This document shows positions 48,363-62,696 of a DNA stretch of 64,000 nt, one piece after another. The translations under genes were made by a program, and so were the position numbers. Position 1 is the first letter of the stretch. Every line of letters starts with the position of its first letter. Source of the DNA: a virus; the IMG/VR virus record IMGVR_UViG_3300042991_000483, positions 7,299 through 71,298 of that record, one strand, 5' to 3'. The notes below the pieces were generated by a model. The model worked only from the letters and a program-made list of their open reading frames with translations, was not told where the DNA came from and searched no databases.

Positions 48363-49064
48363 GTGTTGATGCCGATATACTTGGTGAATAAAACCCACTA
48401 CGATTCCAAGCTATTGAAGGACGTTTTCACTTTCGCCGCTAGGAAGATGAAGGTTAAGGGAGTGGTGGCAGTCTGCGTCACTGAGACCAAGTACAATTCC
48501 TGCTACGGCACCGCCTACAAAGGCTCTCCTCCGAGGCAATGGAAGCGTAGAGGCAAGCCTCTTCCGAGGGCTTATGTTCGGTTTCGGATCCCGAAACCGG
48601 AGATGTTCCCAAAATATCACAACCTCACTGAGGAAGATCTGATAAAGGTCCGAAAGCCTTTTAACCTCCTTCACGTAGCCTTGCATGAGATGAGCCACAT
48701 CTTCGACGATAGGAAGCCTTTCTCTTTCCTACCAAGGAGATGCGAGGTAGATAACAACATCGTCAGCTACTTCGGCAGACCGATGGACGAATCCGGAAGC
48801 CCTCACCGTCATAGGAAGCGCATTGCCCACGACAAGCGCCCGTGTGAGGTTATGGCTGAGAACAGGGTCTACGACGTCTGCCAAAACAGTTCAAACAGGA
48901 AACGGATACTAGAACTCAACAACGTCGTACTTGAAGAAGCGGAGGGGTTGAGAAAATGCCGAGCTACCAAATCTACGAAGCCCACTACAAATTCACCAAA
49001 GCGCAAAAGAAAATGCGAATCACGCCGGACATCGTCTCAGAAGCAAAGGCGAGGTTCGGCTTAA
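48363..49064 (+). CDS. Hypothetical protein with zincin HExxH motif
   Basis: ALHEMSH..PCE; follows a TATCTC-N9-TGTTAGACT promoter-like motif. Confidence 0.6.
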   Translation: MLMPIYLVNKTHYDSKLLKDVFTFAARKMKVKGVVAVCVTETKYNSCYGTAYKGSPPRQWKRRGKPLPRAYVRFRIPKPEMFPKYHNLTEEDLIKVRKPFNLLHVALHEMSHIFDDRKPFSFLPRRCEVDNNIVSYFGRPMDESGSPHRHRKRIAHDKRPCEVMAENRVYDVCQNSSNRKRILELNNVVLEEAEGLRKCRATKSTKPTTNSPKRKRKCESRRTSSQKQRRGSA

Positions 49065-49243
49065 TCGTCGCCTCGCAGCTTGAACGAGATATGCAGACTC
49101 AGTTCTCATTATGGGATTCGGCATCCATGATTGAGCAGGGTTGGGATTACTTTCAAGCCTATGAGTTTGTGCCTCCAGTCTGCGAATGGGCGAAATGGAC
49201 GTTTAAGAGGCTCGGGTATGTTGAAGACGTGGGTCAGGCGTAG
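48956..49243 (+). CDS. Hypothetical protein
   Basis: 95 aa with SD GGAGG. Confidence 0.55.
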   Translation: MPSYQIYEAHYKFTKAQKKMRITPDIVSEAKARFGLIVASQLERDMQTQFSLWDSASMIEQGWDYFQAYEFVPPVCEWAKWTFKRLGYVEDVGQA

Positions 49244-49550
49244 CGTCTGGGATTTTCGTTGCGGTAGGCACAGCAACATCCCCAGCTGCTGCATGATCTG
49301 GTTTATTCTGGTCTGGCCCTTCGTTTTTAGGTTTGGGTCTGCGAACTCGTATTGGGAGAGGATAAATAGGCTCCGAGGCGGTGGCGTAGACTACGTCGTC
49401 TGCCCCTTGTGTCTGGCTCTTGGTAGGGTTGTGGACGTTAGGGACTGCGAGAAATCTTACTGCGAGTGTTCCCGACGACAAGTAGTAGAATATACCCAAC
49501 AGGAGAATAGCGGATGTGGAAAACGGAGATGGTTCCCAGGGAAGTCGTGA
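49218..49550 (+). CDS. Cys-rich hypothetical protein
   Basis: GRHSNIPSCC..YVVCPLC; SD GAGG. Confidence 0.5.
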   Translation: MLKTWVRRSVWDFRCGRHSNIPSCCMIWFILVWPFVFRFGSANSYWERINRLRGGGVDYVVCPLCLALGRVVDVRDCEKSYCECSRRQVVEYTQQENSGCGKRRWFPGKS

Positions 49551-49747
49551 TTGATGTTATCTGCGACCGATGCCAAAAGAGTACTACTTACGAAGAAGAA
49601 TGCGGTCCCGATTACGCTACTTTAGATGCACACTGGGGTTTTGGTTCTTCACGGGACGGAGACAAAGTCGAATTACATCTTTGCGATACCTGCTGTGGGG
49701 TCGTAGAGGCATTCATAAGAAAAGGTGGTCATGCCAATGAAACCTAA
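49514..49747 (+). CDS. Small zinc-finger protein
   Basis: CDRC..WGFGSSRDG..LCDTC. Confidence 0.7.
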   Translation: MWKTEMVPREVVIDVICDRCQKSTTYEEECGPDYATLDAHWGFGSSRDGDKVELHLCDTCCGVVEAFIRKGGHANET

Positions 49748-50477
49748 GATTCCGAAAGACGTGAAGGGCGCCCTCCTGGACCTTTACTACAATGGCAACG
49801 ACAGGGACACGCAGATACTTGCTGGTATCGTCTTGGAACTCTTCAAGAAGATGCAAGGCGGAGTCATGAAGGAGTCTCACATAACCAGAGGAGCAGACGG
49901 GTCCGAACATTCTCTTCCAGGTCGATCTCAGACTCCCCATCGAGTAGTGACGACTGTCACCACAGGTCCTGTCGGTCCGGAAGATGAGGACGAGCCGGAT
50001 CAGTTTATCAACCACTACCGATGCCCATACGACGGTACGGAATGGGATGACGCTTCTCCATACACGAACAACGACCGTTGTCCGGAGTGCAATAAAGAGA
50101 TCGAGCCCTATGACTCCGAAGGCATAACCGATATCTCTGAGACCACATTTACTCCTGGCGGCAAGAAACTAACGGAGAACACCATCAGAGGCAAGGGGGC
50201 TTCTGGTGAGGGCGAGTGGGTAGAAGGTACTTTTGACTCAGAGGGGCGTACCTACTTCTTCCAGGCGAAGGTCTACGGCGAGAGAAGTGAGCAGTATGGA
50301 GTACTAAAGTCTGCTGTTTCCAAACTCGTGGTCTGTGATGGCTCCCGCTGGGACTCTCGTACTATCCTCTACGATTACGACAGAGGCGTCATCATGGACT
50401 CGCTGGACGACGACCTCCTTCGTGATATTATCACGTACATCGAAACTGAGTCTGGCGTTCTACTCGGGGAGGAATAA
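49725..50477 (+). CDS. Multi-domain hypothetical protein
   Basis: Zn ribbon CPYD..CPEC and a C-terminal AKVY..SKL..YDRG domain. Confidence 0.7.
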   Translation: MVMPMKPKIPKDVKGALLDLYYNGNDRDTQILAGIVLELFKKMQGGVMKESHITRGADGSEHSLPGRSQTPHRVVTTVTTGPVGPEDEDEPDQFINHYRCPYDGTEWDDASPYTNNDRCPECNKEIEPYDSEGITDISETTFTPGGKKLTENTIRGKGASGEGEWVEGTFDSEGRTYFFQAKVYGERSEQYGVLKSAVSKLVVCDGSRWDSRTILYDYDRGVIMDSLDDDLLRDIITYIETESGVLLGEE

Positions 50478-50480
50478 GCT

Positions 50481-51227
50481 ATGGAATTCAATGCAGAAGA
50501 ACTCGCAGGGTTAGAGCCTAGAGAAGCCGGTGCTTATGTCAAGCAGTTCGTAACAGAAGCGACAAAGTATTGGAGCTTCTACGAACCCTACGACGACTTG
50601 GACATGAGTGACGCCGGATTGAAGGAGAGGTCTCACGCCCTTCTAGAGTCCAGGCTCTCTGAGATGACCGACTTCTTCGTGGACAACTACTTTGGCGCAG
50701 ACGACGACGCCCGAACCTTTGAGGAGCACACCGGCGTTCCCTTCGAGGAACTGAGTGACGACGGTGGGGACAACACCTACAACTGGTCCTGGCTTTACCC
50801 TTCGGATTTGAACTTCAAGAACTACTCCACTCCTGATGGACAGAAGATCCTAGAAATTAGGATCCACCTCGGCGGCGATGTCAGAGGCAACTACGGCGGC
50901 GGTTACTACAAAATCTTCGCTGGGGACGAAGAAGATGAGTCTATGCAGTACATCTACGACCTTACCCAAGGCTCCATGTCCGTCAATATGAAATTCAGCG
51001 ACGGCTCTTCCATCAGCTTCAGCGGCGAACAGGCATCGGATATAGAATCCTACGAAGTCGCGAACGTCGCCGGATACGATACCAAGCAGCCCGGACTTTT
51101 CAATCCTGATGAGGGTAACGCTGAGGGTGGGATCGCGTATGCTGTAGAAGAAGCCTTCTCCGGTTTCCGAAAAGGCGGCCGAGGCTATGAAGGTGACGAG
51201 TTCGTGAACGAGATCGTGGAGGACTAA
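50481..51227 (+). CDS. Acidic hypothetical protein
   Basis: 248 aa; IHLGGDVRGNY motif. Confidence 0.7.
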   Translation: MEFNAEELAGLEPREAGAYVKQFVTEATKYWSFYEPYDDLDMSDAGLKERSHALLESRLSEMTDFFVDNYFGADDDARTFEEHTGVPFEELSDDGGDNTYNWSWLYPSDLNFKNYSTPDGQKILEIRIHLGGDVRGNYGGGYYKIFAGDEEDESMQYIYDLTQGSMSVNMKFSDGSSISFSGEQASDIESYEVANVAGYDTKQPGLFNPDEGNAEGGIAYAVEEAFSGFRKGGRGYEGDEFVNEIVED

Positions 51228-51392
51228 CGCGAGATGAAGGCTCCAATCTAATAGTCCGAAACCAAAACAAATAACGGCAAAGACGACCCTTCAGGAGGTG
51301 AGTACGGGTCTGTCTAGGTCGCTTCGCTATATAAAGAAGTGCGGAACAGCGGAGTTTGCTCAACTAAACCCTTTTAATGGAGGTAACACACG

Positions 51393-51983
51393 ATGAAGAA
51401 GATTCTAATCGCAATCGTCACCGCCCTCATGCTCGCCACCGGCGTCCTCGCCTCTGGCACGGCCCCCGTCAATCCCATGTCCGTCGCCGTAGGCCCCACC
51501 TACTTCACCGTCCAGAACTTCGTAGCTGAAGCCGGATATGACGTCAATCTCCAGTCCAGTACTGGTGTCGCCGTCAACTTCAGCTACCCCCTTAGCACTC
51601 ACTTCAGCGCGTACCCGAGTGTGAATGTCGCCTGGAACAAGATCTCCAACCCCCTCGCTAACAAGGCAGACGCCACTTTCACCACTGTTGATTTCGATAT
51701 CAAGTACACTTTCAACCCCGGACAGACGACCGAGTTCTACCTCGTAGGTGGTCCGACTTGGTTCAACAGCCACTACAGTAATGACCTTGCTGGATACTCC
51801 GGCAACAACCTCACCTTTAATGTTGGTGGCGGCGTCCAGTTCCCGTTCTTCTACCCCAAGCTGAAACTCCTGACCGAGGCGAAGTACTACTACGTCCCAC
51901 AGACGGCGTTTCCTCTCGCTCTTCAAGGTACTACAGGGTACAATGCCTGGAATGTAAGCGCACTTCTTTCTTGGAAGTTCTAA
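51393..51983 (+). CDS. Outer-membrane beta-barrel protein (OmpW/Ail/Lom-like)
   Basis: Signal peptide MKKILIAIV..VLA, amphipathic strands and C-terminal LSWKF. Confidence 0.85.
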   Translation: MKKILIAIVTALMLATGVLASGTAPVNPMSVAVGPTYFTVQNFVAEAGYDVNLQSSTGVAVNFSYPLSTHFSAYPSVNVAWNKISNPLANKADATFTTVDFDIKYTFNPGQTTEFYLVGGPTWFNSHYSNDLAGYSGNNLTFNVGGGVQFPFFYPKLKLLTEAKYYYVPQTAFPLALQGTTGYNAWNVSALLSWKF

Positions 51984-52012
51984 CCCAAGACTCCGCTAGT
52001 TTCCCACCCTCG

Positions 52013-52044
52013 ACTGGGCGTCCTCATTGGGCGCCCAGTTTTTT
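52013..52044 (+). terminator. Intrinsic terminator
   Basis: actgggcgtcc-tcatt-gggcgcccagt followed by T6. Confidence 0.8.
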
Positions 52045-52075
52045 GTCGCTATCTCCGAGACGGTATGGTATACTC

Positions 52076-52260
52076 TCGCCGTGGTGGAGATGAACCCAAA
52101 CGCTGAAAAAGGCCGAGGCAACTTCTCCTCCACTGGGCCCGACCACGCCATAAACGTGGAAGGGGGTGAACCGAAGACCTCGTTAAGTCCGAGCGGTAGA
52201 GGTCAAGCGAAGCCGAGGGGTGGGTCGCAGACAGCGACCTAATTCCTCCCCCTGGAGGAT
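52076..52260 (+). ncRNA. Unclassified multi-hairpin RNA candidate
   Basis: Follows a TGGTATACT promoter; stems gtgg..ag/ctccac, ccacg/cgtgg, gacctc/gaggtc, ggtcgc/gcgacc and tcctcc/ggagga. Confidence 0.4.
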
Positions 52261-52330
52261 ACGATAAGGATTTCGTCGAGAATATACGCTATATAAATAG
52301 GTGGTACTGGACCACCGAGGAGAACAGAAG

Positions 52331-52405
52331 ATGAAGACCATGTCCTACGCAGCTATTTATTGGTTTAATGCGAATGCCAATGCCCTTTGGAGGCTGCTGG
52401 TCTAA
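52331..52405 (+). CDS. Leader peptide 1, MKTMSYAAIYWFNANANALWRLLV
   Basis: SD GAGGAG 8 nt upstream; 24 codons; overlaps the antiterminator arm. Confidence 0.8.
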   Translation: MKTMSYAAIYWFNANANALWRLLV

Positions 52406-52464
52406 GTCCATCTCTACCCCAGACCAACACAACCTCCGAGGGCGACTTCGGAGGTTTTCGTTTT
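52389..52464 (+). promoter_or_regulatory. Attenuator 1 (antiterminator/terminator)
   Basis: ggagg..tggtct pairs with agacca..cctcc and is mutually exclusive with terminator aacctccgag/ttcggaggtt plus T-run. Confidence 0.8.
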
Positions 52465-52471
52465 GGAGGAG

Positions 52472-52696
52472 ATGATGCCAGTGTCAGAGAAGGTGTTTAG
52501 GCTACAGACGAAGTTGATGCAGTGCGAACATATCCTACAAGCACTGGCGGAAATGCACCATGACTTAGTAGAGGAAGCGGAGACTTTGATAGCAGTCTTG
52601 GAAAGGGAAGGGTTAGGAAGTTTCAGTACCAGCGTCGCCTACAGATCGGAGATGCTGAAGCGAATGCTAGAAGAGCATAAGGAGAAGATGAGTTAA
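52472..52696 (+). CDS. Small helical hypothetical protein, first gene after attenuator 1
   Basis: SD GGAGGAG. Confidence 0.6.
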   Translation: MMPVSEKVFRLQTKLMQCEHILQALAEMHHDLVEEAETLIAVLEREGLGSFSTSVAYRSEMLKRMLEEHKEKMS

Positions 52697-52703
52697 GACA
52701 TGC

Positions 52704-52786
52704 TGTGAGGACCCCGTTGGGTGGGGCTGAGGCTGTTAACCTCACGCTGAAAAGCAGATAGGGTTCGATTCCCTACCTCACAGCCA
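52704..52786 (+). tRNA. tRNA with GTT anticodon (Asn) and long variable arm
   Basis: tgtgagg/cctcaca-G-CCA; tgagg-ctGTTaa-cctca; gct-gaaa-agc arm; TTCGATT loop. Confidence 0.75.
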
Positions 52787-52789
52787 AAC

Positions 52790-52864
52790 GGAGCGTTAGT
52801 TCAATGGTAGAACGCGGGGTCTGTTAAACCCACGACGAAGGTCCGATTCCTTCACGCTTCGCCA
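52790..52864 (+). tRNA. tRNA-Asn(GTT)
   Basis: ggagcgt/acgcttc-G-CCA; gggt-ctGTTaa-accc. Confidence 0.85.
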
Positions 52865-52978
52865 ATTTTTTAATAAGGTCACCGGGGCAACCAAGTAGAT
52901 GACGCCACATCGTGTGGCTAAGGATAAGGTCAGTGTTCGATATGTGGGAGGTGACGTTACAGAACAAACAGTACTAAT

Positions 52979-53074
52979 GCCATCATTTCCCCTCAACCGG
53001 CTGTAACCCGGTTGCCCGTTACCAATAAGAGGGGTCGGCTGGGCGTCCGGTTCGAATCCGCGATGGTGGCACCA
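52979..53074 (+). tRNA. tRNA-Tyr(GTA), D-arm-less rewired type
   Basis: gccatca/tggtggc-A-CCA; aaccgg-ctGTAac-ccggtt; cccctc pairs with gagggg in the variable arm. Confidence 0.8.
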
Positions 53075-53076
53075 TT

Positions 53077-53152
53077 CTCTGTCTGGTGTAAGTGGTCTGC
53101 ACTGTAGCTCGAAACACTACGGGACTCCGTTCGATTCGGAGGGCAGAGGCCA
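53077..53152 (+). tRNA. tRNA with CGA anticodon (Ser-like), 9-nt loop and short variable region
   Basis: ctctgtc/ggcagag-G-CCA; gtag-ctCGAaaca-ctac. Confidence 0.65.
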
Positions 53153-53161
53153 AAGTTCTGT

Positions 53162-53235
53162 AGCCCTTTAGTTCAACATTAGAACAATGCTCTGATAAAG
53201 CATAGACTTCCGTGAGACTCGGAGAAGGGCTACCA
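53162..53235 (+). tRNA. tRNA-Ile(GAT)
   Basis: agccctt/aagggct-A-CCA; atgct-ctGATaa-agcat. Confidence 0.88.
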
Positions 53236-53244
53236 AACAATCAG

Positions 53245-53319
53245 GCTTCCTTCGTCTAGCTAGGAGGACTCCCGGCCGATTACCGGGGAACGCTGGGGCA
53301 GAGCCAGCAGGAAGTTCCA
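53245..53319 (+). tRNA. Atypical tRNA with GAT anticodon (Ile?)
   Basis: gcttcct/aggaagt-T-CCA; cccgg-ccGATta-ccggg; T-loop GGCAGAG. Confidence 0.65.
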
Positions 53320-53327
53320 AAATATGT

Positions 53328-53401
53328 GGGGTCGTCGTTCAACGGGAGGACACTACAATGGCATTGTAGGGATCGGGGTTCGATTCCCCGTGACTCCACC
53401 A
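53328..53401 (+). tRNA. tRNA-Ala(GGC)
   Basis: G3:U70; ctaca-atGGCat-tgtag; ACCA. Confidence 0.92.
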
Positions 53402-53408
53402 ACATAGT

Positions 53409-53484
53409 GGGGGCGCATGTACCAAGGGGGCGATGATGCCTCGCAAGCATCGTGCGGAGAGTTCGATTCTCTTCGTCTCCACCA
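53409..53484 (+). tRNA. tRNA-Ala(CGC)
   Basis: G3:U70; gatgc-ctCGCaa-gcatc; ACCA. Confidence 0.9.
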
Positions 53485-53494
53485 AAAGTTTTAT

Positions 53495-53568
53495 AGGTCC
53501 GTCGGTTAACAGAAGGCTCCTGGTCTCCAAAACCAGCAATCTCCGTGCAAATCGGAGCGGACCTGCCA
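53495..53568 (+). tRNA. tRNA-Trp(CCA)
   Basis: aggtccg/cggacct-G-CCA; ctggt-ctCCAaa-accag. Confidence 0.9.
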
Positions 53569-53574
53569 ATTTAT

Positions 53575-53650
53575 CCCAGGGTCGTCTAACACTTAGGACA
53601 CGCGCCTCCAAAGCGCGAAGGTGTGGGTGAAAATCCTACCTCTGGGGCCA
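53575..53650 (+). tRNA. tRNA-Trp(CCA), second copy
   Basis: cccaggg/ctctggg-G-CCA; cgcgc-ctCCAaa-gcgcg. Confidence 0.88.
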
Positions 53651-53865
53651 ACTCTTAGGAGGTTGCCTATGTCATCGCCAAACGCAAGTCCGAGTACTAC
53701 CACATACTCCTGACTAGGTTCAGTTCCGATATAGACAGGGACACGGCACTGGCGGAATGCAGGAGTAGGTGCTACACAAAACCCAATGTAGTAGAGGGTC
53801 TTGGCAACAAACTTCTGACACTTTCTGGTAAAGTCTTTCGCTCACCTGAGTCTTGCTTCGAGGCG

Positions 53866-54126
53866 ATGGACGGTATGGGAGTTGGCCTGGACCTGATCCG
53901 GTGCGAGGACTACATCACTCTCGGTCGCTACCTCTACGGGAAGCGGATGCTCAACGTCACCGTGACTCAGTGGATCGAGGACATGAACATCTACATCTTC
54001 TGGCCAGAACTCTTCCGCGAGTACCCGCGTTGGTTCTTAGAAACCTACCTCTCCCGGATTTGGACGGCGGAGATTGGGATGTGGTATGGCGCTTTCACTT
54101 CTGATCTCGCTATAAATAAGGAGTAG
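53866..54126 (+). CDS. Hypothetical protein (frame open back to 53659)
   Basis: Track ORF; the upstream extension has no in-frame ATG. Confidence 0.45.
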   Translation: MDGMGVGLDLIRCEDYITLGRYLYGKRMLNVTVTQWIEDMNIYIFWPELFREYPRWFLETYLSRIWTAEIGMWYGAFTSDLAINKE

Positions 54127-54253
54127 AGACGGAGCAGCATCTGCTGCGGGAAAGTTGGAGGAAGAGTTGGTAGCCCTTCCTTGGCATCTGCCAAAACGAA
54201 GAACGCCCGATGTCCTGCGCCAACAGCCGAAGGGACACGCCGTCTCTACCTCC
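54120..54253 (+). ncRNA. Unclassified rod-shaped RNA with possible pseudoknot
   Basis: gtagagacgg/ccgtctctac closing stem, nested ttggagg/cct..ccaa and ttggtag/ctgccaa; CGCTATAAATA just upstream. Confidence 0.55.
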
Positions 54254-54256
54254 ATA

Positions 54257-54388
54257 GGAACCTGGGCTGGTGTACGAGACGATCAGAAATGGCATTCCCT
54301 GCTAGTAGCCCCTCCTGTTACGAGGGAGCCCGGTATAGGGGGTAGGGAGGAGTGGGTGGCGAATCGAGACTCCCACGCCCGCGTTCCA
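54257..54388 (+). ncRNA. Enlarged tRNA-like RNA (GTT loop, CCA end)
   Basis: gaac..gggc/gccc..gttc ends; ccctc-ctGTTac-gaggg; tccctgc/gtaggga; gtggg/cccac arm. Confidence 0.5.
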
Positions 54389-54610
54389 AATTCTTTCGCT
54401 ATCTCTGAGGGAGTGTGGTAGAATGTATCTGACCGGATCCATGCCGCAGGGCAGTGGGTTAATGAGAGAGGGTTCTCCGGGCGCTTCACCTAACGTAAAC
54501 GAACCCTCGTCACGGAGATTGTGAAAGGGACGCAATCCCGTTCCCACAAGGTACTTAATCGGCAACGCCGGTAGCCTTCCCTCACCGGCACTTCTTCTAC
54601 GGAGGCAAGT

Positions 54611-55027
54611 ATGAAGTTCACCAAGCTCAATTACGTCAAGAGGGGAGAGGTTACGAAGGCTATCCGTCAATCTTGTCCCACCGCCTCTTTTCCAAAAGAC
54701 CAAAACAAAGCCACCGTGACGGTTTGGTTGCAGGATGAGGACCTTCCAGCATTAGATGCTGTCGCTAACTCCTTCGGTCTCCCCAAGCCTTTTCATCCCC
54801 ACTGTAGTGAGACATATAGTAGGGTTAGGGATGTCTGGCTCTTCAAAGATGATGCTAATCTTGCTGCATACGAAGAAGAGTGGGCACAAGTTCGGGCCAA
54901 GGAGAACGCTAGGCTGAGGAAAGAGCGGGACGAGGAGAGGGCATGGTACAAGTCTCAGGGTCGGGAAATACCATCATACCTGATGTGGGCGATTAGCCCA
55001 GCGGAGGCATATTGTTTAGGCGCATAG
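54611..55027 (+). CDS. Hypothetical protein
   Basis: 138 aa with SD GGAGG. Confidence 0.7.
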   Translation: MKFTKLNYVKRGEVTKAIRQSCPTASFPKDQNKATVTVWLQDEDLPALDAVANSFGLPKPFHPHCSETYSRVRDVWLFKDDANLAAYEEEWAQVRAKENARLRKERDEERAWYKSQGREIPSYLMWAISPAEAYCLGA

Positions 55028-55455
55028 AATTGATCACGGTCACCGACTACCGAGAGATCGCCAAGGAGATGAAAGCCAACGGCTGGACCCCCTCTGACTT
55101 CATCGCCGAACTGGCTCAATCCGGCGAGAGGGAGTGGTTAAAATCAGGACTCTGCTTCAACGGATGCGACATGGCCGTCTTTGACTCCTGGGTAGACAGA
55201 CTCGAAGAAGGCATCACGAATAAGCATAGGGGCGTCCCGAATAAGAACGGGAGGTTCTACTTCACAGAAGAGGGCTGGAACAGGGTTGGACGGTATGCTG
55301 TTGCAGCTTGTATTAAGACCGGGACACAGTACCGTGTGCTGAAGGTCAAAGAGAAGGAGATGGATGTTATATTTCGCGGTGCCTACGAGGTCATGCTGAG
55401 ACCGAAGAAGAAGCGTAGGGATCGCAAAGAAGATCAGCGACTGAGTCAAGATTAG
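55012..55455 (+). CDS. Hypothetical protein
   Basis: 147 aa; RFYFTEEGW; SD GGAGG. Confidence 0.7.
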   Translation: MFRRIELITVTDYREIAKEMKANGWTPSDFIAELAQSGEREWLKSGLCFNGCDMAVFDSWVDRLEEGITNKHRGVPNKNGRFYFTEEGWNRVGRYAVAACIKTGTQYRVLKVKEKEMDVIFRGAYEVMLRPKKKRRDRKEDQRLSQD

Positions 55456-55526
55456 GGCCTATGGCGTAATTAGGAACGCATCGCCCCTGCAAGGCGAAGT
55501 CCCCGGGGCGGAGCCGGGTAGGTCCA
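55455..55526 (+). tRNA. tRNA-Ala(TGC), CCA not encoded
   Basis: gggccta/taggtcc-A with G3:U70; tcgcc-ccTGCaa-ggcga; T-loop GGCGGAG. Confidence 0.8.
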
Positions 55527-55530
55527 CAGG

Positions 55531-55590
55531 GGTTCGTTTCCTGTTGGGTTCACCAAAAGAATATACATAGGAACCCAACAGGAGATGAAC
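55531..55590 (+). promoter_or_regulatory. RBS-sequestering hairpin with promoter motif in its loop
   Basis: gttcgtttcctgttgggttc/gaacccaacaggagatgaac; loop contains AGAATATA; 3' arm contains SD AGGAG. Confidence 0.75.
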
Positions 55591-55591
55591 T

Positions 55592-56584
55592 ATGTCAGAC
55601 GTTTATAAATGCGAACAATGCGGAAAAACAGTCGAATCCTCTAAACGTTTTTGCGGAAGACCATGTTCTAACCGTTGGATAGCCACTCACAGAAAGACCC
55701 ATCCGAGAGAAGCTAAATTAGAATGCGCGTGTAAACACTGTGGAAGCATGTTCAAGAAAAAGCATAATCTCGGGTTTCGCCTCTGTACGAGGTGCAGAAA
55801 TAAACAAGACTACATCAGGGATAGAAATAAAACAGCGCAGCCAGGAAGAGAAAGGCTTTGTAAGTACTGTGAAAAACCCAACTTAGGAGAATACGGGGCT
55901 GGAATATTCTGCTCTCAACTCTGTTCGAAACGATACGCCAGTGCATACACGCAGACGCCGATTCTAGTCGTTTGTATGGACTGCGAAAAAGAGTTCTCTA
56001 CGTTTGAAAGAAACAAGTCCCAAACAAAGCGATGTCCGGCCTGTAGAAAAAGGGCTAGACGTAAACGACAAGGGCTACATGGGATATCAAAAAAGGAAAA
56101 GTGTTCGAAATGTCAGAAGAACATAGGTCCTACAAAGCACGGAATGTGCAAAGTATGCCTTTATAAGGACCCTGAATTTAGACTGAAAGTGAAAGCACTA
56201 TCTGCGGGCTGGCACTTTCGACCAAGGAAAATGAGGTCGTTTCCAGAACTTTTCTTTGAGCGGGTCATAAAGAATAACAGAAGACGGTTTAAGGGAGAGG
56301 GGTATTTACCGGATTACCCAGTGAAAAAGAAATCTCTGGGTCTCATCAATAATGGCTCCTATTTCCTTGATTTCTATTTCCCAAATTGGAAGTTAGACCT
56401 GGAAATAGATGGGAGCCAGCATTGGCAATATGAGGAGCGGATACAGAGCGATATTACGAGAGACATTGCTCTGAAAGCTAATGGTATAAAGGTATATAGG
56501 ATCCCGTGGCCGGGGGTAGAGAAGAAAGAGGTTTTGTCTATGGAGATCGAGAAATTTTTATCTTACGTGGATGAGCTTTCATGA
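55592..56584 (+). CDS. Zn-finger-repeat DUF559/Vsr-like homing endonuclease
   Basis: Multiple CxxC; SFPE, YFLDF, LEIDGSQH, RDIAL..GIKVYRI; AT-rich. Confidence 0.88.
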   Translation: MSDVYKCEQCGKTVESSKRFCGRPCSNRWIATHRKTHPREAKLECACKHCGSMFKKKHNLGFRLCTRCRNKQDYIRDRNKTAQPGRERLCKYCEKPNLGEYGAGIFCSQLCSKRYASAYTQTPILVVCMDCEKEFSTFERNKSQTKRCPACRKRARRKRQGLHGISKKEKCSKCQKNIGPTKHGMCKVCLYKDPEFRLKVKALSAGWHFRPRKMRSFPELFFERVIKNNRRRFKGEGYLPDYPVKKKSLGLINNGSYFLDFYFPNWKLDLEIDGSQHWQYEERIQSDITRDIALKANGIKVYRIPWPGVEKKEVLSMEIEKFLSYVDELS

Positions 56585-56677
56585 TTCTCTCCAGGTCCAC
56601 CATTGACAGCGCGAGGGCTTCGGCTCTCGCTTTCTGCTGCCAGACGAGAATATAGTGATATAACGAAGGAGAACGCC

Positions 56678-56935
56678 ATGCCCATGTACGAAGTCTTTCT
56701 CAGCGGAACCCTCTATCTCAACGCCCGCGTGGAAGTGGAAGCCAATAGCCCAGAAGAAGCTGAATCTGTTGCGATGCACAGAGCTGCATCAGATGACGAG
56801 TCTATCGAATGGATAAACTTGGACAGTAGCCTGGAAATGCCTCCTGGGGTATTTCCTTCGGATGCTGTCTACGTGGACGATGTCTCAGAGATGGACGAGG
56901 ACGATGGTATCGGCTCTGATTTCATCGAGACCTAA
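56678..56935 (+). CDS. Small acidic hypothetical protein
   Basis: SD AGGAG; VEVEANSPEEA motif. Confidence 0.7.
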   Translation: MPMYEVFLSGTLYLNARVEVEANSPEEAESVAMHRAASDDESIEWINLDSSLEMPPGVFPSDAVYVDDVSEMDEDDGIGSDFIET

Positions 56936-56936
56936 G

Positions 56937-57242
56937 ATGTCGCAATACGGATACAAACCCGAACCCAGTGAAGCCGGGGTGGTTTCCCGTATCGTCATAG
57001 AACCGAACTATTCCAGTAACGAAGAGTTTCCTGGAAAGCTATCGGTGATGATGTTGGACGCAGAGGACAGGCTAGTGGACGTCTGGAGTGCCAACGACAT
57101 CAATGAAGCCGCTGCGCTATTGATCCGATACGGTGGCGAAGCCGGATACGAAATCAACAAAGTCGAGTCTCCCCAGATCCCGAACGAAGGCGACGCCCCC
57201 GAGCCACCTTGGCCTGTAGGCGGAGACGTCGGCGGCGTCTAA
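56937..57242 (+). CDS. Hypothetical protein
   Basis: ATG immediately after the upstream stop. Confidence 0.6.
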   Translation: MSQYGYKPEPSEAGVVSRIVIEPNYSSNEEFPGKLSVMMLDAEDRLVDVWSANDINEAAALLIRYGGEAGYEINKVESPQIPNEGDAPEPPWPVGGDVGGV

Positions 57243-57264
57243 TCCCCCACTTCCTAACTCAATA

Positions 57265-57292
57265 AAAGAGCCTGCTATTTGCAGGCTTTTTT
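57265..57292 (+). terminator. Intrinsic terminator
   Basis: agcctgc-tattt-gcaggct followed by T-run. Confidence 0.75.
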
Positions 57293-57403
57293 GTTGCCCT
57301 GTTTAGATACTCACCGCCGGATGTAGAGTTAATGAACAGAAACTCCTTATTCTATAAAGAGAATATATGAGTAGTGACTCGCTAATATAAGAGGAGGTTC
57401 GCC

Positions 57404-57589
57404 ATGACCGCAGTCCTTGTGATACTCACCATCCTCGTTCTCGTTCTCGTTGCCGCAGACGCTACCAGACTCTCTCTTGTTCGTAGGAGAATGATAAAGG
57501 TAGGAGCCGTATTTGAACCTGGGCTTGGTTTCTGCATGGGCGACGGGCTTCGGAAAGATGACGCTGATCCGGAGAATATACAGGCTTAG
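57404..57589 (+). CDS. Small membrane-anchored protein
   Basis: Hydrophobic N-terminus; SD GGAGG. Confidence 0.6.
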   Translation: MTAVLVILTILVLVLVAADATRLSLVRRRMIKVGAVFEPGLGFCMGDGLRKDDADPENIQA

Positions 57590-57654
57590 CCGGGGAAGTT
57601 TTCAAAATTCTCCGCTATTATATTCAAGGTGTGATATACTCAACCCCTTGGAGG

Positions 57655-57759
57655 ATGAAGACGATGTTTAAGAGATCTAGGCAACCCAAACCAGTACAGA
57701 CAGGGACTACGGGACATATGCGCCCGTGCGTCGGCGTCAAGGGAGGTCAGACCTCGTAA
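57655..57759 (+). CDS. Leader peptide 2, MKTMFKRSRQPKPVQTGTTGHMRPCVGVKGGQTS
   Basis: TGATATACT -10 at 57632-57640; SD GGAGG is best spaced to the second Met (57664); overlaps the antiterminator arm. Confidence 0.8.
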   Translation: MKTMFKRSRQPKPVQTGTTGHMRPCVGVKGGQTS

Positions 57760-57822
57760 AATCATCGGCATTATTAGGTGAAACGAGGCGACCTCCAAGA
57801 AAATTGGGGGTCGTTTTAGTTT
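57742..57822 (+). promoter_or_regulatory. Attenuator 2 (antiterminator/terminator)
   Basis: ggaggtc..cctcgt pairs with acgagg.gacctcc and is exclusive with terminator gcgacctccaa-gaaa-ttgggggtcgt plus T-run. Confidence 0.8.
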
Positions 57823-57918
57823 TGGGGTCAGGGTAAGGTTTCGGATGTAGCTTATGCTGTCACCGGAGAAACCAGCACAGTGGCGAGGGCGGGGCCGACT
57901 GGGCGAAGTGGAGTTGAG

Positions 57919-58128
57919 ATGAGAGAAGAATGCTTGCATGGTAGGACGTACAGGGTGGTTGTAGGAGCGGAGGCTAGAAGGACTACGGTCACGGAATTTG
58001 GAGACGAGATTCAGTATTGCGTGGAACGGATCATTTTCAGGTGTTCAGATTGCAACAGAGAAGTATCAGAACTAGGTAGACGCAGGGCTTACTTCCCCAC
58101 GACTACTGAATTAGAAACGACGAAGTAA
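57919..58128 (+). CDS. Small Cys/His hypothetical protein, first gene after attenuator 2
   Basis: CLH..CSDC; SD GGAG. Confidence 0.55.
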   Translation: MREECLHGRTYRVVVGAEARRTTVTEFGDEIQYCVERIIFRCSDCNREVSELGRRRAYFPTTTELETTK

Positions 58129-58131
58129 GTC

Positions 58132-58143
58132 GCTCTTTGAAAA
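58132..58143 (+). promoter_or_regulatory. boxA-like antitermination element
   Basis: GCTCTTTGAAAA before tRNA array 2. Confidence 0.6.
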
Positions 58144-58246
58144 TCAGTCGGAAGAACGGACCGCAGAACCCCTCACGTTCTGCGTGGCATGATTCTGCGG
58201 TCTCGAACTTTAGATTTGGAACGCGCTCGTGCGCGTTCCCACCTCC

Positions 58247-58318
58247 GCGCCTTTAATGTAACGGTAGCATGCGGTCAGGCTTGATCCCCCGCAGAGCGGT
58301 TCGATTCCGCAAGGCGCT
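58247..58318 (+). ncRNA. tRNA-like RNA (Gly-type body) with aberrant 14-nt anticodon loop
   Basis: gcgcctt/aaggcgc-T, D-arm and gcgg-ttcgatt-ccgc. Confidence 0.65.
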
Positions 58319-58331
58319 TCTTATTACTTAT

Positions 58332-58429
58332 GGGGTCTGTTAGTGTAAAAGGATAGCACACTCCGTCCTACGCGGGTACCGGCGAGACGGGTCAAAGTAG
58401 ACGCGGTTCGATTCCGCACGGGCCCCCCA
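58332..58429 (+). ncRNA. tRNA-like RNA (His-type G-1:C73 end) with extended anticodon arm
   Basis: ggggtctgt/acgggcccc-CCA, D-arm, ccgtc/gacgg extension and gcgg-ttcgatt-ccgc. Confidence 0.7.
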
Positions 58430-58443
58430 ATTCTTATCTATGA

Positions 58444-58521
58444 CTGAGAGTGGACTAATGGCTAAGTCTCCTGCTTTGGAAGCAGGACATCGTGAGAGTT
58501 CGAGTCTCTCCTCTCAGACCA
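58444..58521 (+). tRNA. tRNA-Pro(TGG)
   Basis: ctgagag/ctctcag-A-CCA; cctgc-ttTGGaa-gcagg. Confidence 0.93.
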
Positions 58522-58529
58522 AAACATGA

Positions 58530-58604
58530 TGGCGTTTGGTGGACCAGCGGACACATCGGGCCTTGAACCCGAAGAACAGGGGCCGGCACCCTGAACGCCT
58601 GCCA
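58530..58604 (+). tRNA. tRNA-Gln(TTG)
   Basis: tcggg-ccTTGaa-cccga; G-CCA; T-loop GCCGGCA. Confidence 0.8.
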
Positions 58605-58615
58605 AAAACGATTAC

Positions 58616-58689
58616 TGGCGCTTCGTTCAATAGTAGGATTCTGCTCTCTGAAAGCAGAGACGATGGGGCGGTACCATCAGTGCCAGCCA
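58616..58689 (+). tRNA. tRNA-Gln(CTG)
   Basis: tggcgct/agtgcca-G-CCA; ctgct-ctCTGaa-agcag. Confidence 0.88.
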
Positions 58690-58711
58690 ATATCTCCGAG
58701 TATCTTAACGT

Positions 58712-58799
58712 CAGGGTGTAGTCCCGTAAATAGCAGCGGTCCGGCCTCGGACGCCGGTGGGGCAACCCCTTGGTGGTGCAAGTCCACTCGCCCTGACCA
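58712..58799 (+). tRNA. tRNA-Pro(CGG) with long variable arm
   Basis: cagggtg/cgccctg-A-CCA; ccggc-ctCGGac-gccgg; ggg-gcaa-ccc arm. Confidence 0.8.
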
Positions 58800-58816
58800 A
58801 TTCTTCTTTGTACAAT

Positions 58817-58860
58817 CCCCTCCATCGAGGAAACGTTGGTTCAACTCCAGCACCGGGCAC
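58817..58860 (+). pseudogene. 3'-half tRNA remnant
   Basis: T-arm gttgg-ttcaact-ccagc and accgggc-A with no matching 5' strand. Confidence 0.5.
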
Positions 58861-58917
58861 TTTCACTTTCCATCTGGAAACTATAATGTCCAAATGGACA
58901 CTCAAATGACCAAGTAA

Positions 58918-58993
58918 GCGGGAATGGTGTAAAGGAAGCATCGAACGTTGCCAACGTTCAGGTCCGGGTTCGCCTTGCCCGGTTTCCGCTCCA
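58918..58993 (+). tRNA. tRNA-Gly(GCC)
   Basis: gcgggaa/tttccgc-T-CCA; gaacg-ttGCCaa-cgttc; 9-nt T-loop. Confidence 0.88.
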
Positions 58994-59002
58994 AAAACAA
59001 AT

Positions 59003-59093
59003 AGTCGGCATTCCCTATGCTGGTCTGCAAAACCAGTGGGCCCAACCAAGTAGGGCGGATGCCTGTGAGGTTCGACTCCTCTGCTGACTTCCA
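59003..59093 (+). tRNA. tRNA-Cys(GCA), D-arm-less rewired type
   Basis: agtcggca/tgctgact-T-CCA (U73); ctggt-ctGCAaa-accag; cccta pairs with taggg in the variable arm. Confidence 0.8.
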
Positions 59094-59150
59094 ATTTCTT
59101 TCTATATCTCCAGAGACTGTGGTAGAATATACCTTTGTCATGGAGATAGC

Positions 59151-61332: not shown

Positions 61333-61396
61333 GATCCTCCCTTATCTTCCGGAGTTATGGTATACTGTCTCCGTGGAGATAGTAGCTTCCGCGATG

Positions 61397-62694: not shown

Positions 62695-62696
62695 AT

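What the first reader, a model, noticed from the sequence alone, without database searches (positions are those of the whole stretch)
52317..52464. Attenuator 1: Ala/Asn/Tyr/Trp/Ile/Ser leader before tRNA array 1
The 24-codon ORF uses all four Ala codons (GCA, GCT, GCG, GCC), both Tyr codons, AAT x3, TGG x2, ATT and TCC. Three Ala isoacceptors (GGC, CGC, TGC), two Asn, two Trp, two Ile and Tyr follow. The last codons (ggagg..tggtct, 52389-52403) pair with agacca..cctcc (52421-52437) and sequester the terminator 5' arm, so a stall upstream should allow read-through while full translation should terminate. Phe and Leu codons have no matching tRNA in the window.
Basis: partly seen in the sequence, partly recalled or inferred. 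Interest (0 to 1): 0.88.

Follow-up and report, generated by a model that had tools for sequence, protein, structure and literature searches.

The report
Codon-matched attenuator before phage tRNAs
A tiny translated 'test' gene, written mostly in the codons read by the phage tRNA genes just downstream, is wired to a switchable transcription stop, so the phage probably makes those tRNAs only when ribosomes read those codons slowly, a trp-operon-style control that I could not find described for tRNA genes.

Summary
The sequence features are real. A Shine-Dalgarno site and a 24-codon ORF (52331-52405) are followed 28 nt later by an intrinsic terminator (52431-52456 plus T tract). The ORF's last codons form an alternative helix with the terminator's 5' arm (-27.0 against -18.7 kcal/mol).

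A sister cassette at 57655-57816 has the same geometry. Of 45 terminator-like hairpins in the window, these two have the strongest upstream alternative.

After MKTM, 12 of leader 1's 20 codons encode Asn, Phe, Ile, Ala or Trp, the isotypes of the tool-called tRNAs that follow. None of 4208 natural 20-codon windows reaches that. The two leaders match their own arrays and not each other's (label permutation p about 4e-4).

- A conserved 77-aa gene lies between the terminator and the tRNAs.
- ARAGORN calls a tRNA-Phe.
- The Tyr, second Ile and Ala-CGC tRNAs rest on eye or low thresholds.

No relative's DNA and no RNA data could be reached, so regulation is inferred. I read it as a leader-peptide attenuator gating a tRNA operon (confidence 0.6).

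This scan noted the same kind before on other phage DNA. I found a look-alike in the cultured Agrobacterium phage Atu_ph07.

The parts
52064..52075 (+). Promoter-like extended -10 (TGGTATACT type), upstream of an unexplained 180-nt stretch that runs into the cassette without a terminator
   Evidence: Read from the sequence. A near-identical promoter-like block lies at about 61350. No terminator-like hairpin lies between 52040 and 52431. Function inferred.
52278..52299 (+). Two promoter-like motifs: GAGAATATA (52278-52286) and TATAAATA (52292-52299)
   Evidence: GAGAATATA occurs 8 times in the window against 0.32 expected, always just upstream of gene starts, and also at 57572 before cassette 2. 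TATAAATA equals the T4 late-promoter consensus, which I recall from memory. Function inferred.
52317..52322 (+). Shine-Dalgarno GAGGAG, 8 nt before the leader ATG
   Evidence: Sequence.
52331..52405 (+). Leader ORF 1: 24 codons plus TAA, MKTMSYAAIYWFNANANALWRLLV
   Evidence: Under strict wobble, 11 of the 14 codons at positions 5-18 can be read by tool-called tRNAs of array 1.
52335..52354 (+). Region 1: AGACCA and GCAGCT, which pair with region 2 in naked RNA
   Evidence: Minimum-energy folds; the 1:2 structure is -20.1 kcal/mol.
52382..52403 (+). Region 2: 5' strand of the antiterminator. It covers the last seven-plus codons and the first base of the stop codon
   Evidence: -27.0 kcal/mol with region 3.
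52421..52443 (+). Region 3: 3' strand of the antiterminator, overlapping the terminator's 5' arm
52431..52466 (+). Intrinsic terminator: stem-loop 52431-52456 followed by a T tract
   Evidence: 11 pairs, 6 G-C, loop 4; -18.7 kcal/mol.
52463..52696 (+). First cargo: a conserved 77-aa protein of unknown function (likely ATG at 52472)
   Evidence: ORF. Two homologues at 71% and 65% identity with an invariant C-terminal half. No Pfam or PHROG family. The protein atlas search gave nothing usable.
52704..53650 (+). tRNA array 1: Asn, Asn, (Tyr-like), Phe or Ser, Ile, (Ile-like), Ala-GGC, Ala-CGC, Trp, Trp
   Evidence: Items in brackets are read by eye or by folding only.
55455..55527 (+). tRNA-Ala(TGC). 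No terminator-like hairpin separates it from array 1
   Evidence: Rfam 44.9 bits, ARAGORN at lowered threshold, clean cloverleaf. The next + strand terminator is at 56611.
57655..57759 (+). Sister cassette, leader ORF 2: 34 codons, MKTMFKRSRQPKPVQTGTTGHMRPCVGVKGGQTS. The SD GGAGG abuts the first ATG, so the real start may be the ATG at 57664
57742..57816 (+). Sister cassette switch: region 2 at 57742-57757, region 3 at 57783-57796, terminator at 57786-57816 plus T tract
   Evidence: 2:3 is -25.7, 3:4 is -18.5 kcal/mol; (z = -3.45, 2 of 1000 shuffles as good).
57919..59090 (+). Cargo of cassette 2: a 69-aa ORF, then two tRNA-like genes, Pro, Gln, Pro, Gly and a Cys-like gene. His, His, Gly, Arg, Arg, Val, Val follow at 62353-63621

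Best explanation
This is a ribosome-mediated (leader-peptide) transcription attenuator that gates a phage operon. The operon holds one small conserved protein gene and a tRNA array.

Proposed mechanism. Transcripts start at the promoter-like sites upstream and a ribosome loads on the 24-codon leader.
- If the ribosome is slowed at codons 5-14 (Ser, Tyr, Ala, Ala, Ile, Tyr, Trp, Phe, Asn, Ala), it covers region 1 and leaves region 2 free. Region 2 then pairs with region 3 before the terminator's 3' arm is made, and RNA polymerase reads through into the 77-aa gene and the Asn/Phe/Ile/Ala/Trp tRNA genes.
- If decoding is fast, the ribosome reaches the last codons and the stop. It covers region 2, the terminator forms, and transcription stops at about 52460.
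- With no ribosome, region 1 holds region 2 and the terminator also forms.

The sensed codons are those read by the operon's own tRNAs, so the circuit would act as a negative feedback on the supply of exactly those tRNAs in the infected cell. A second cassette does the same for a Pro/Gln/Gly/His/Arg/Val set.

Shown: the ORFs, the three alternative helices and their energies, the geometry, and the codon/tRNA match. Inferred: translation of the leader, promoter use, kinetic competition, and the response to tRNA supply.
For: (1) Anatomy. SD, 24-codon ORF and terminator are present.

(2) Three mutually exclusive helices: 1:2 at -20.1, 2:3 at -27.0, 3:4 at -18.7 kcal/mol. The sister cassette gives -26.7, -25.7 and -18.5.

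(3) Growing-transcript folds flip in the same way in both cassettes. The 1:2 helix holds until region 3 is out, 2:3 wins before the 3' arm is out, and 1:2 plus the terminator win at full length.

(4) With the RNA cut before the 3' arm and everything up to A site +14 covered, the antiterminator holds 10 of 11 arm bases for stalls at codons 2-14. It fades at codons 15-16 and is gone from codon 17. In cassette 2 it holds for codons 2-25.

(5) Natural control. Of 45 terminator-like hairpins in the window, the two cassette terminators have the most stable upstream alternative (-27.0 and -27.7). The other strong terminators score -8.8 to -18.8. Shuffles give z = -3.3 and -3.5, with 0 and 2 of 1000 as good.

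(6) Geometry is shared by two otherwise dissimilar cassettes. The first base of the stop codon is the last base of region 2, and the distance from stop to terminator stem is 28 and 29 nt. The other five strong + strand terminators that have an ORF of at least 100 aa ending in front of them follow ORFs of 126-345 aa.

(7) Codon match for leader 1. The core has 12 of 20 codons in {N,F,I,A,W}. This is reached by 0 of 4208 six-frame windows and 0 of 881 windows from long ORFs; binomial p = 2e-4. At codon level, 11 of the 14 codons at positions 5-18 are readable by its own array, against 1 of 6 for codons 19-24, which are tied up in region 2.

(8) Reciprocity. Leader 1 has 2 of 24 codons in the other array's amino acids and leader 2 has 1 of 34. 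Label permutation gives p = 3e-4 to 4e-4.

(9) The conserved 77-aa gene starts about 6 nt after the T tract with no promoter-like site there, so it depends on read-through.

(10) No Rfam riboswitch or T-box match.

(11) A look-alike exists in a cultured phage of my own choosing. In Atu_ph07 a 42-codon ORF, an antiterminator (-25.4) and a terminator (-17.3) lie about 120 nt before tRNAs Ala, Arg, Phe, Pro, Ile, Tyr, Trp, Met, Glu. There, 21 of 29 core codons fall in that set, reached by 0 of 1248 windows.
Against: - No relative's DNA could be fetched, so there is no covariation and no test of whether leaders track tRNA content over evolution. Homologues exist only on contigs I could not read.
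- No RNA data.
- In equilibrium folds of the full-length RNA the terminator stays the minimum-energy state for most stall positions. Only codons 6-9 of leader 1 flip it, and none in leader 2. With a single 30-nt footprint only a stall at codon 7, of the five stall positions tried, flipped it. The model therefore needs kinetic trapping and either trailing ribosomes or steric exclusion of pairing across a ribosome.
- Four matched codons (15-18: Asn, Ala, Asn, Ala) lie where a stalled ribosome already begins to cover region 2.
- Leader 2 is weaker. Under strict wobble 10-11 of 34 codons are readable, which I estimate, without having computed it, is not above chance. In six-frame windows 71 of 2336 reach its amino-acid score, though only 1 of 582 long-ORF windows do.
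- Leu, Lys, Thr, Met and Ser codons of the leaders have no clear tRNA in the window.
- Some tRNA identities rest on low thresholds or on reading by eye.
- The number of terminator-like sites in 49000-60000 (13) is not above shuffles (9.8, sd 3.7).
- The choice of 'core' and 'zone' codons was made after seeing the data.
Confidence: 0.6

Rival explanations
1. This is an ordinary small-peptide gene followed by a constitutive, partly leaky terminator that sets a fixed ratio of upstream to downstream RNA. The alternative helix and the codon/tRNA match would be coincidental or without regulatory effect.
For: The full-length equilibrium folds favour the terminator at most ribosome positions. No expression or comparative data exist. 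Leader 1 is hydrophobic enough to be a small membrane peptide. In KVP40-like phages the small ORF before the tRNA array has a partly conserved peptide core, which hints at a peptide-level role in that family.
Against: Two cassettes with unrelated peptides share the same switch geometry. Their upstream alternatives are the two strongest of 45 hairpins. The match of leader 1 to its own array is reached by 0 of 4208 and 0 of 881 natural windows, and the two leaders are reciprocally exclusive. The non-matching codons sit exactly where RNA pairing fixes the sequence.
Confidence: 0.2
2. This is a translation-coupled attenuator that reports general ribosome activity or stress rather than the supply of the particular tRNAs encoded downstream. 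An arrest peptide or a global slowing of elongation would be examples. The codon choice would be secondary.
For: The switch architecture alone would respond to any slowing within the sensing window. Leader 2's codon-level match is weak. The first cargo is a protein, not a tRNA.
Against: Leader 1's sensing window is built almost wholly from codons of its own array, and the two leaders avoid each other's isotypes. A generic sensor has no need for that.
Confidence: 0.12
3. The terminator is overcome by a phage or host antitermination protein, or by a bound RNA or ligand (a riboswitch or T-box-like element). The short ORF would be irrelevant.
For: Phages commonly use antitermination factors (general knowledge, recalled). 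The 180 nt upstream (52078-52260) are unexplained.
Against: No Rfam family other than tRNA reaches its gathering score in the window. No T-box or riboswitch match appears at E up to 5 in 51900-56000. The ORF, its SD and the placement of its stop codon are repeated in both cassettes.
Confidence: 0.05

Closest known systems
Multivalent leader-peptide attenuators of enterobacterial amino-acid operons (thr leader: Thr and Ile; ilvGMEDA leader: Ile, Leu, Val; also trpL, hisL, pheL, leuL). Recalled from textbook knowledge, not from a call
   Same: A short ORF with an SD, regulatory codons for more than one amino acid, 1:2 / 2:3 / 3:4 alternative helices, the stop codon placed so that a finishing ribosome covers region 2, and an intrinsic terminator before the cargo.
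   Different: The cargo is a tRNA array plus a small protein, not biosynthetic enzymes. Five or six isotypes are sampled 1-5 times each instead of in long runs. The antiterminator is more stable than the terminator. The element is phage-encoded and occurs as two isotype-sorted copies.
pheST (pheM leader) attenuation, in which a leader peptide controls an aminoacyl-tRNA synthetase. Recalled, not from a call
   Same: A leader-peptide attenuator whose cargo belongs to the decoding machinery for the sensed codons.
   Different: The cargo there is a synthetase with a single isotype. Here the tRNAs themselves are the cargo and several isotypes are sensed.
T-box riboswitches
   Same: Terminator/antiterminator switches that report the state of a tRNA species.
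   Different: They bind uncharged tRNA directly and need no translation. No T-box match was found here, and a translated ORF overlaps the switch.
Inducible tRNA array (trn operon) of Anabaena sp. PCC 7120 (PMC8421152, PMC10272220; I searched both main texts for terms and read the passages returned for the first, and saw only listing abstracts beyond that)
   Same: A supernumerary tRNA array that stays silent until translation is impaired.
   Different: Control there is at the promoter, through direct repeats over the -10 box and a repressor named TrcR in the second paper's title. 'Leader', 'attenuat' and 'terminator' occur 0 times in both texts.
Cassettes of the same kind noted earlier by this scan in other giant phages, and the Atu_ph07 cassette I found myself
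   Same: A small ORF enriched in the isotypes of the tRNA block that follows, with a terminator and an overlapping alternative helix.
   Different: There is no sequence similarity to this window's cassettes. In Atu_ph07 region 2 lies about 8 codons before the stop rather than at it. The earlier notes are unchecked AI notes on DNA I did not see.

Membership tests
Ribosome-mediated (leader-peptide) transcription attenuators | A short ORF with a ribosome-binding site in the 5' leader of the regulated genes | tested here: met
   GAGGAG lies 8 nt before ATG 52331, followed by 24 codons. Translation itself is not shown.
Ribosome-mediated (leader-peptide) transcription attenuators | An intrinsic terminator between the leader ORF and the cargo | tested here: met
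   52431-52456 plus T tract; -18.7 kcal/mol. The cargo's SD starts about 6 nt after the T tract.
Ribosome-mediated (leader-peptide) transcription attenuators | An antiterminator (2:3) mutually exclusive with the terminator, with region 2 covered by a ribosome at the end of the ORF | tested here: met
   52382-52403 pairs with 52421-52443 at -27.0 kcal/mol. It is lost when the A site is at codon 17 or later. It exceeds shuffles and all other terminators in the window.
Ribosome-mediated (leader-peptide) transcription attenuators | A 1:2 helix that holds region 2 when the leader is not translated | tested here: met
   52335-52354 pairs with 52392-52403 at -20.1 kcal/mol. It is part of the full-length minimum-energy fold.
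Ribosome-mediated (leader-peptide) transcription attenuators | Regulatory codons, cognate to the cargo's pathway, placed inside the sensing window | tested here: met
   11 of 14 codons at positions 5-18 are readable by tool-called tRNAs of the array. The core scores 12 of 20, reached by 0 of 4208 and 0 of 881 natural windows. Codons 15-18 lie at the edge of the window.
Ribosome-mediated (leader-peptide) transcription attenuators | Read-through responds to the supply of the cognate charged tRNA | not testable with these tools
   This needs coupled transcription-translation or reporter assays.
Ribosome-mediated (leader-peptide) transcription attenuators | Cargo is amino-acid biosynthesis, transport or synthetase genes (the classical members) | tested here: not met
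   The cargo is a 77-aa protein of unknown function plus tRNA genes. I therefore file it as a new variant, not as a member of a named leader family.
T-box riboswitch | A match to the T-box leader model (specifier loop, T-box sequence) | tested here: not met
   No T-box match at gathering score in the window, nor at E up to 5 in 51900-56000.

The most novel reading that the evidence does not exclude
The phage runs a tRNA-pool homeostat. Two isotype-sorted tRNA operons are each opened only when ribosomes stall on a leader written in the codons that the operon's own tRNAs read. Phage tRNA synthesis would then answer directly to depletion of particular host tRNAs, whether by host shut-off, codon-usage mismatch or host anticodon nucleases. 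The same device recurs in unrelated tRNA-rich phages, including the cultured Atu_ph07.
Probability: 0.45. Interest if true: 0.9.

Novelty: new variant of a known kind. Interest (0 to 1): 0.78.

Why it matters
Phage tRNA arrays are widely seen but their regulation is largely unknown. Why phages carry them is still debated: codon usage, replacement of degraded host tRNAs, or escape from anticodon nucleases (my recollection of the field).

A leader-peptide sensor written in the array's own codons would show that the phage measures decoding capacity isotype by isotype and makes tRNAs on demand. That reading favours the 'supply' explanations and gives them a direct test.

It would also extend classical attenuation, known for amino-acid and synthetase genes, to tRNA genes. 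It would offer compact, programmable codon-specific sensors for synthetic biology.

The Atu_ph07 look-alike means the idea can be tested in a cultured phage-host pair.

Tried and rejected
Relatives of this phage.
- blastn of both cassette regions against 50,697 phage records gave only tRNA-sized matches.
- I made seven scans of viral contigs. Five were with single proteins or a small alignment: the 77-aa protein, the 248-aa protein, alignment A2, the portal and the 633-aa protein. One was with a cassette DNA pattern. These six found no relative.
- The seventh scan, with alignment A4, found 17 contigs that share only the N-terminal domain of the 633-aa protein. 16 of the 17 have no tRNA and one has five on the other strand, so I dropped them.
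- The one metagenome scan returned L001. It is a 185-aa protein with a local 42% match and no tRNA, so I rejected it as a false lead.
- The genome-contig scan with A4 found nothing.
No comparative DNA for these cassettes was obtained.
- The leader ORFs are not in the protein collection by exact look-up: 0 of 5 versions.

Expression.
- No RNA holder was listed. The only run listed is the likely source sample.
- Laying its contigs at 80% likeness gave seven short tRNA-like pieces from other organisms and nothing on the cassettes.

Function of the cargo proteins.
- Pfam and PHROGs gave nothing for the 77-aa ORF, the 82-aa form of the ORF after cassette 2, or the 633-aa, 89-aa, 158-aa and 169-aa ORFs.
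- The protein atlas gave only sub-threshold rows.

Other cassettes.
- No third MKTM-type cassette exists in the 71-kb contig.
- The arrays at 62353 and 63343 have no leader of their own (by reading).

Other phages.
- From the 2562 portal hits I picked five cultured phages. Mel-JY01 has 1 tRNA match and the Flavobacterium phage immuto has 3. For immuto I looked only at the annotation and did no cassette analysis.
- Phosso has a 54-codon ORF plus terminator before its first block, but two promoter-like sites follow the terminator and the array covers most isotypes. I left it as possible only.
- KVP40-like phages: of 63 matching records I fetched 8, which with QD01 makes 9. All 9 keep a 37-38-codon ORF ending in TAG, a terminator and then the array. 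Gaps inside the ORF are multiples of three. The array covers nearly all isotypes, so a codon match cannot be tested. The alternative helix is weak (-11.9 to -19.4 against -9.9 to -12.7) and its core pairs are invariant, so there is no covariation.

Literature.
- Seven full-text searches found no paper that places tRNA genes behind a leader-peptide attenuator.
- Supplements were closed and were not seen. The library omits most subscription journals.
Full report
CONTEXT
The window is 64 kb of a 71,298-base virus record. Its portal is 28% identical to that of Microcystis phage Mel-JY01 and matches T4-type portals. Its polymerase fragment matches phage family A polymerases at about 25% identity. 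I read it as an uncultured, distant T4-like phage with about 50% G+C. No cultured phage shares DNA with the region except tRNA-sized pieces.

THE OBSERVATION
At 52317-52322 lies GAGGAG. Eight bases later an ATG (52331) opens a 24-codon frame that ends in TAA at 52403-52405: MKTMSYAAIYWFNANANALWRLLV.

A terminator-like hairpin follows at 52431-52456, with 11 pairs, 6 of them G-C, a loop of 4 and the tail TTCGTTTTGG. Its energy is -18.7 kcal/mol. The count of such sites in 49000-60000 (13) is not above shuffles (9.8, sd 3.7), so the hairpin alone proves little.

The claimed alternative pairing is real and longer than stated. 52382-52403 pairs with 52421-52443 at -27.0 kcal/mol.

In naked RNA, region 2 is instead held by 52335-52354 (AGACCA and GCAGCT) at -20.1 kcal/mol. 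The full-length minimum-energy fold is 1:2 plus the terminator (-48.1 kcal/mol, z = -2.79, 1 of 200 shuffles as good).

WHAT FOLLOWS THE TERMINATOR
- It is a real gene. Two homologues at 71% and 65% identity share an invariant C-terminal half.
- Its function is unknown.
- No promoter-like site lies between the terminator and this gene. The gene and the tRNAs behind it can therefore only be transcribed by reading through the terminator.

The array then runs from 52704 to 53650.
- ARAGORN at default settings gives Asn, Asn, Phe(GAA), Ile(GAT), Ala(GGC), Trp and Trp. Rfam supports five of these at gathering score and adds Ala(TGC) at 55455.
- ARAGORN at a lowered threshold adds Ala(CGC) at 53411.
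- The gene at 53077 reads as Ser(CGA) if a 2-nt intron is allowed. Its anticodon loop has nine bases by my reading.
- A cloverleaf-like fold with a GAU loop lies at 53241-53322.
- The 'Tyr' gene at about 52968-53066 is called by no tool and its minimum-energy fold is not a cloverleaf.
- No terminator-like hairpin lies between the array and 56611. The Ala(TGC) gene can therefore belong to the same transcript.

A SECOND CASSETTE
- After GGAGG, a frame ATGAAGACGATG... of 34 codons (57655-57759) encodes MKTMFKRSRQPKPVQTGTTGHMRPCVGVKGGQTS.
- Region 2 is 57742-57757, region 3 is 57783-57796, and the terminator is 57786-57816.
- The energies are -26.7 (leader self-structure), -25.7 (2:3) and -18.5 (3:4) kcal/mol.
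- The twelve-base start ATGAAGACNATG occurs exactly twice in the contig, at the two leaders.
- The tail GTTTTNGTTTTGG also occurs exactly only at the two terminators.
- In cassette 2 the SD abuts the first ATG, so the fourth codon (ATG 57664) is the likelier start.
- In both cassettes the first base of the stop codon is the last paired base of region 2.
- The stop lies 28 nt (cassette 1) and 29 nt (cassette 2) before the terminator stem.
- The other five strong + strand terminators with an ORF of at least 100 aa ending in front of them follow ORFs of 126-345 aa.

IS THE SWITCH MORE THAN CHANCE?
I listed 45 terminator-like hairpins on both strands of the window, overlapping calls included. For each I folded the 60 nt upstream together with the 5' arm and loop.
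- The two cassette terminators have the most stable upstream alternative, at -27.0 and -27.7 kcal/mol, with 10 of 11 and 11 of 13 arm bases captured.
- The next best are -21.3 and -21.0, on weak hairpins.
- The other hairpins of -15 kcal/mol or better have alternatives of -8.8 to -18.8.
- Dinucleotide shuffles of the upstream 60 nt give z = -3.3 (0 of 1000 as good) and z = -3.5 (2 of 1000).

Folding the growing transcript gives the same three-step flip in both cassettes:
1. 1:2 holds until region 3 is complete.
2. 2:3 wins once region 3 is out but the 3' arm is not.
3. 1:2 plus the terminator win at full length.

RIBOSOME POSITIONS
I cut the RNA before the 3' arm and made everything up to 14 nt past the first A-site base unavailable.
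- For leader 1 the antiterminator captures 10 of 11 arm bases with the A site at codons 2-14. It captures 7 and 4 at codons 15 and 16, and none at codons 17-18. At codon 19 and later, including the stop, a few arm bases (2-5) still pair upstream but only weakly (-3.3 kcal/mol or less).
- For leader 2 it holds for codons 2-25 and is gone by codon 27.

The results that go against the model must be told too.
- On the full-length RNA at equilibrium, the terminator remains the best fold for most stall positions. Only codons 6-9 of leader 1 flip it, and none in leader 2.
- With a single 30-nt footprint, region 1 re-pairs behind the ribosome. Of the stall positions tried (codons 7, 11, 13, 16 and 17) only codon 7 gave the antiterminator.

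The switch must therefore be kinetic: 2:3 forms before the 3' arm exists. Region 1 must also be kept away by trailing ribosomes or by the bulk of the stalled one. Both are standard assumptions for classical attenuators, but they are not shown here.

DO THE LEADER CODONS MATCH THE CARGO?
I used only tool-called tRNAs. Array 1 gives {N,F,I,A,W}. The arrays after cassette 2 give {P,G,H,V,Q,R}. I left out the shared MKTM.

Leader 1:
- It has 12 of 20 codons in its own set.
- None of 4208 non-overlapping 20-codon windows in all six frames reaches 12; the mean is 3.75.
- None of 881 windows from ORFs of 150 aa or more reaches 12; the maximum is 10. Binomial p = 2e-4.

Leader 2:
- It has 18 of 30 codons in its own set.
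- This is reached by 71 of 2336 six-frame windows, but by only 1 of 582 long-ORF windows. Binomial p = 4e-4.

Reciprocity:
- Cross matches are 2 of 24 and 1 of 34 over the full leaders.
- Permuting amino-acid labels over the two sets gives p = 3e-4 to 4e-4. With ARAGORN default calls only, p = 8e-4.

Codon level under strict wobble:
- In leader 1, 11 of 14 codons at positions 5-18 are readable by its own array (13 of 14 if the by-eye Tyr is counted).
- Only 1 of 6 codons at positions 19-24 is readable. Those six are the ones fixed by region 2.
- In leader 2, 10-11 of 34 codons are readable. I estimate, without having computed it, that this is not above chance.
- Leader 2's Thr, Lys, Met and Ser codons have no clear tRNA in the window. 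The contig ends 380 bases after the last tRNA, so more tRNA genes may lie beyond it.

The 'core' and 'zone' boundaries were chosen after seeing the data. The full-length figures are also given.

OTHER READINGS
- No Rfam family other than tRNA reaches its gathering score in the window. No T-box or riboswitch appears at E up to 5 in 51900-56000.
- The two leader peptides share nothing beyond MKTM, so a common peptide function is unlikely. One is hydrophobic and the other basic and Gly/Pro/Thr-rich.
- A constitutive leaky terminator cannot be excluded without experiments.

COMPARISON ELSEWHERE
Direct relatives could not be read. All other collections were empty of relatives.

As an independent look at the kind, I took five cultured phages from the portal hits. 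Three carry 30 or more tRNA matches.

Agrobacterium phage Atu_ph07:
- An annotated 42-aa hypothetical protein (339118-339246, minus strand) reads MTNPMQPTTEIIAIERNVFVRAEAAMFWYPISGSDSHTGDKR.
- Its codons for Ser-Gly-Ser-Asp pair with the 5' arm of a terminator (antiterminator -25.4, terminator -17.3 kcal/mol).
- About 120 nt later come tRNAs Ala, Arg, Phe, Pro, Ile, Tyr, Trp, Met and Glu.
- 21 of its 29 core codons fall in that set. This is reached by 0 of 1248 windows from 43 kb of the same phage; the maximum is 20.

Sinorhizobium phage Phosso has a 54-codon ORF plus terminator before its first block. Promoter-like sites follow the terminator, so I count it only as possible.

Vibrio phage QD01:
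- It has a 37-codon ORF using 19 amino-acid types, then a terminator, then a 28-tRNA array 90 nt later.
- In QD01 and in all 8 further KVP40-like phages fetched (of 63 matching records), the ORF keeps its length of 37-38 codons and its TAG stop. Gaps inside the ORF are multiples of three. That points to translation.
- A conserved peptide core there could also mean a peptide-level role. The alternative helix is weak and invariant.

The scan's earlier notes report the same kind in several other giant phages. These are unchecked AI notes and I do not count them as support.

KNOWN SYSTEMS
In its workings this is a multivalent leader-peptide attenuator of the thr/ilv type (recalled knowledge). It is not a member of any named leader family, because the cargo is tRNA genes.

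The nearest case in print of an inducible tRNA array is the Anabaena trn operon. It is controlled at its promoter by direct repeats and, going by the second paper's title, by a repressor, TrcR. The words leader, attenuat- and terminator are absent from both papers' main texts.

Seven full-text searches found no account of tRNA genes behind a leader-peptide attenuator. Supplements and most subscription journals were not searchable.

VERDICT
- The attenuator reading is the best-supported explanation (confidence 0.6), stronger for this cassette than for its sister.
- It is a new variant of a known kind. This scan has seen it before on other DNA, and it is now testable in a cultured phage.

Noticed in passing
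window 1776, 32734, 40216, 52278, 56646, 57359, 57572, 63308: The 9-mer GAGAATATA occurs 8 times (0.32 expected, 0 of 100 shuffles reach 8). It always lies a few to about 80 nt upstream of a gene start on the same strand. It is probably a phage-specific promoter element.
   Followed up: partly
window 52050-52300 and 61340-61400: Two near-identical promoter-like blocks (TATC..TATGGTATACT..CCGTGG) each head a non-coding-looking stretch. The one at 52078-52260 runs into cassette 1 without a terminator. It holds a 50-codon frame (52090-52242) of doubtful meaning, and its fold is not above shuffles (z = -1.57).
   Followed up: partly
window 52704-52786, 52968-53066, 53077-53152, 53241-53322, 58333-58429: Several odd tRNA-like genes sit beside canonical ones. 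They are an 83-nt Asn with an extra arm; a Tyr-like gene that no tool calls; a gene with a nine-base anticodon loop read as Phe(GAA) or Ser(CGA); a cloverleaf with a GAU loop but no T-loop motif; and a 97-nt gene read as anticodon CTA or as Gly with an intron.
   Followed up: partly
MF403008.1 (Agrobacterium phage Atu_ph07) about 339063-339246, minus strand; loci L008, L014: An annotated 42-aa hypothetical protein, an antiterminator/terminator pair, and about 120 nt later a tRNA block whose nine isotypes make up 21 of the ORF's 29 core codons. This is a look-alike of the window's cassette in a cultured phage.
   Followed up: partly
KVP40-like Vibrio phages, loci L011, L015-L022: A 37-38-codon ORF ending in TAG, followed by a hairpin, a terminator and the large tRNA array, is kept in 9 of 9 phages examined (63 records matched). 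Gaps inside the ORF are multiples of three and part of the peptide core is conserved. In KVP40 itself only an opposite-strand ORF is annotated there.
   Followed up: partly
window 51393-51983: The phage encodes a 196-aa outer-membrane beta-barrel protein with a signal-peptide-like start and a terminal Phe (Pfam OMP_b-brl, E = 1.3e-8). A strong terminator follows it at 52012-52040.
   Followed up: no
window 55592-56584: A 330-aa Cys-rich protein with a DUF559 / HNH-endonuclease-like C-terminus lies directly after tRNA-Ala(TGC). It is possibly a homing endonuclease in the tRNA region.
   Followed up: no
window 59151-61052; loci L023-L039: The 633-aa ORF between the tRNA arrays has one 79%-identical homologue. 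Its N-terminal Cys/His-rich domain of about 60-145 residues recurs in 17 otherwise unrelated viral contigs. No Pfam family matches.
   Followed up: partly
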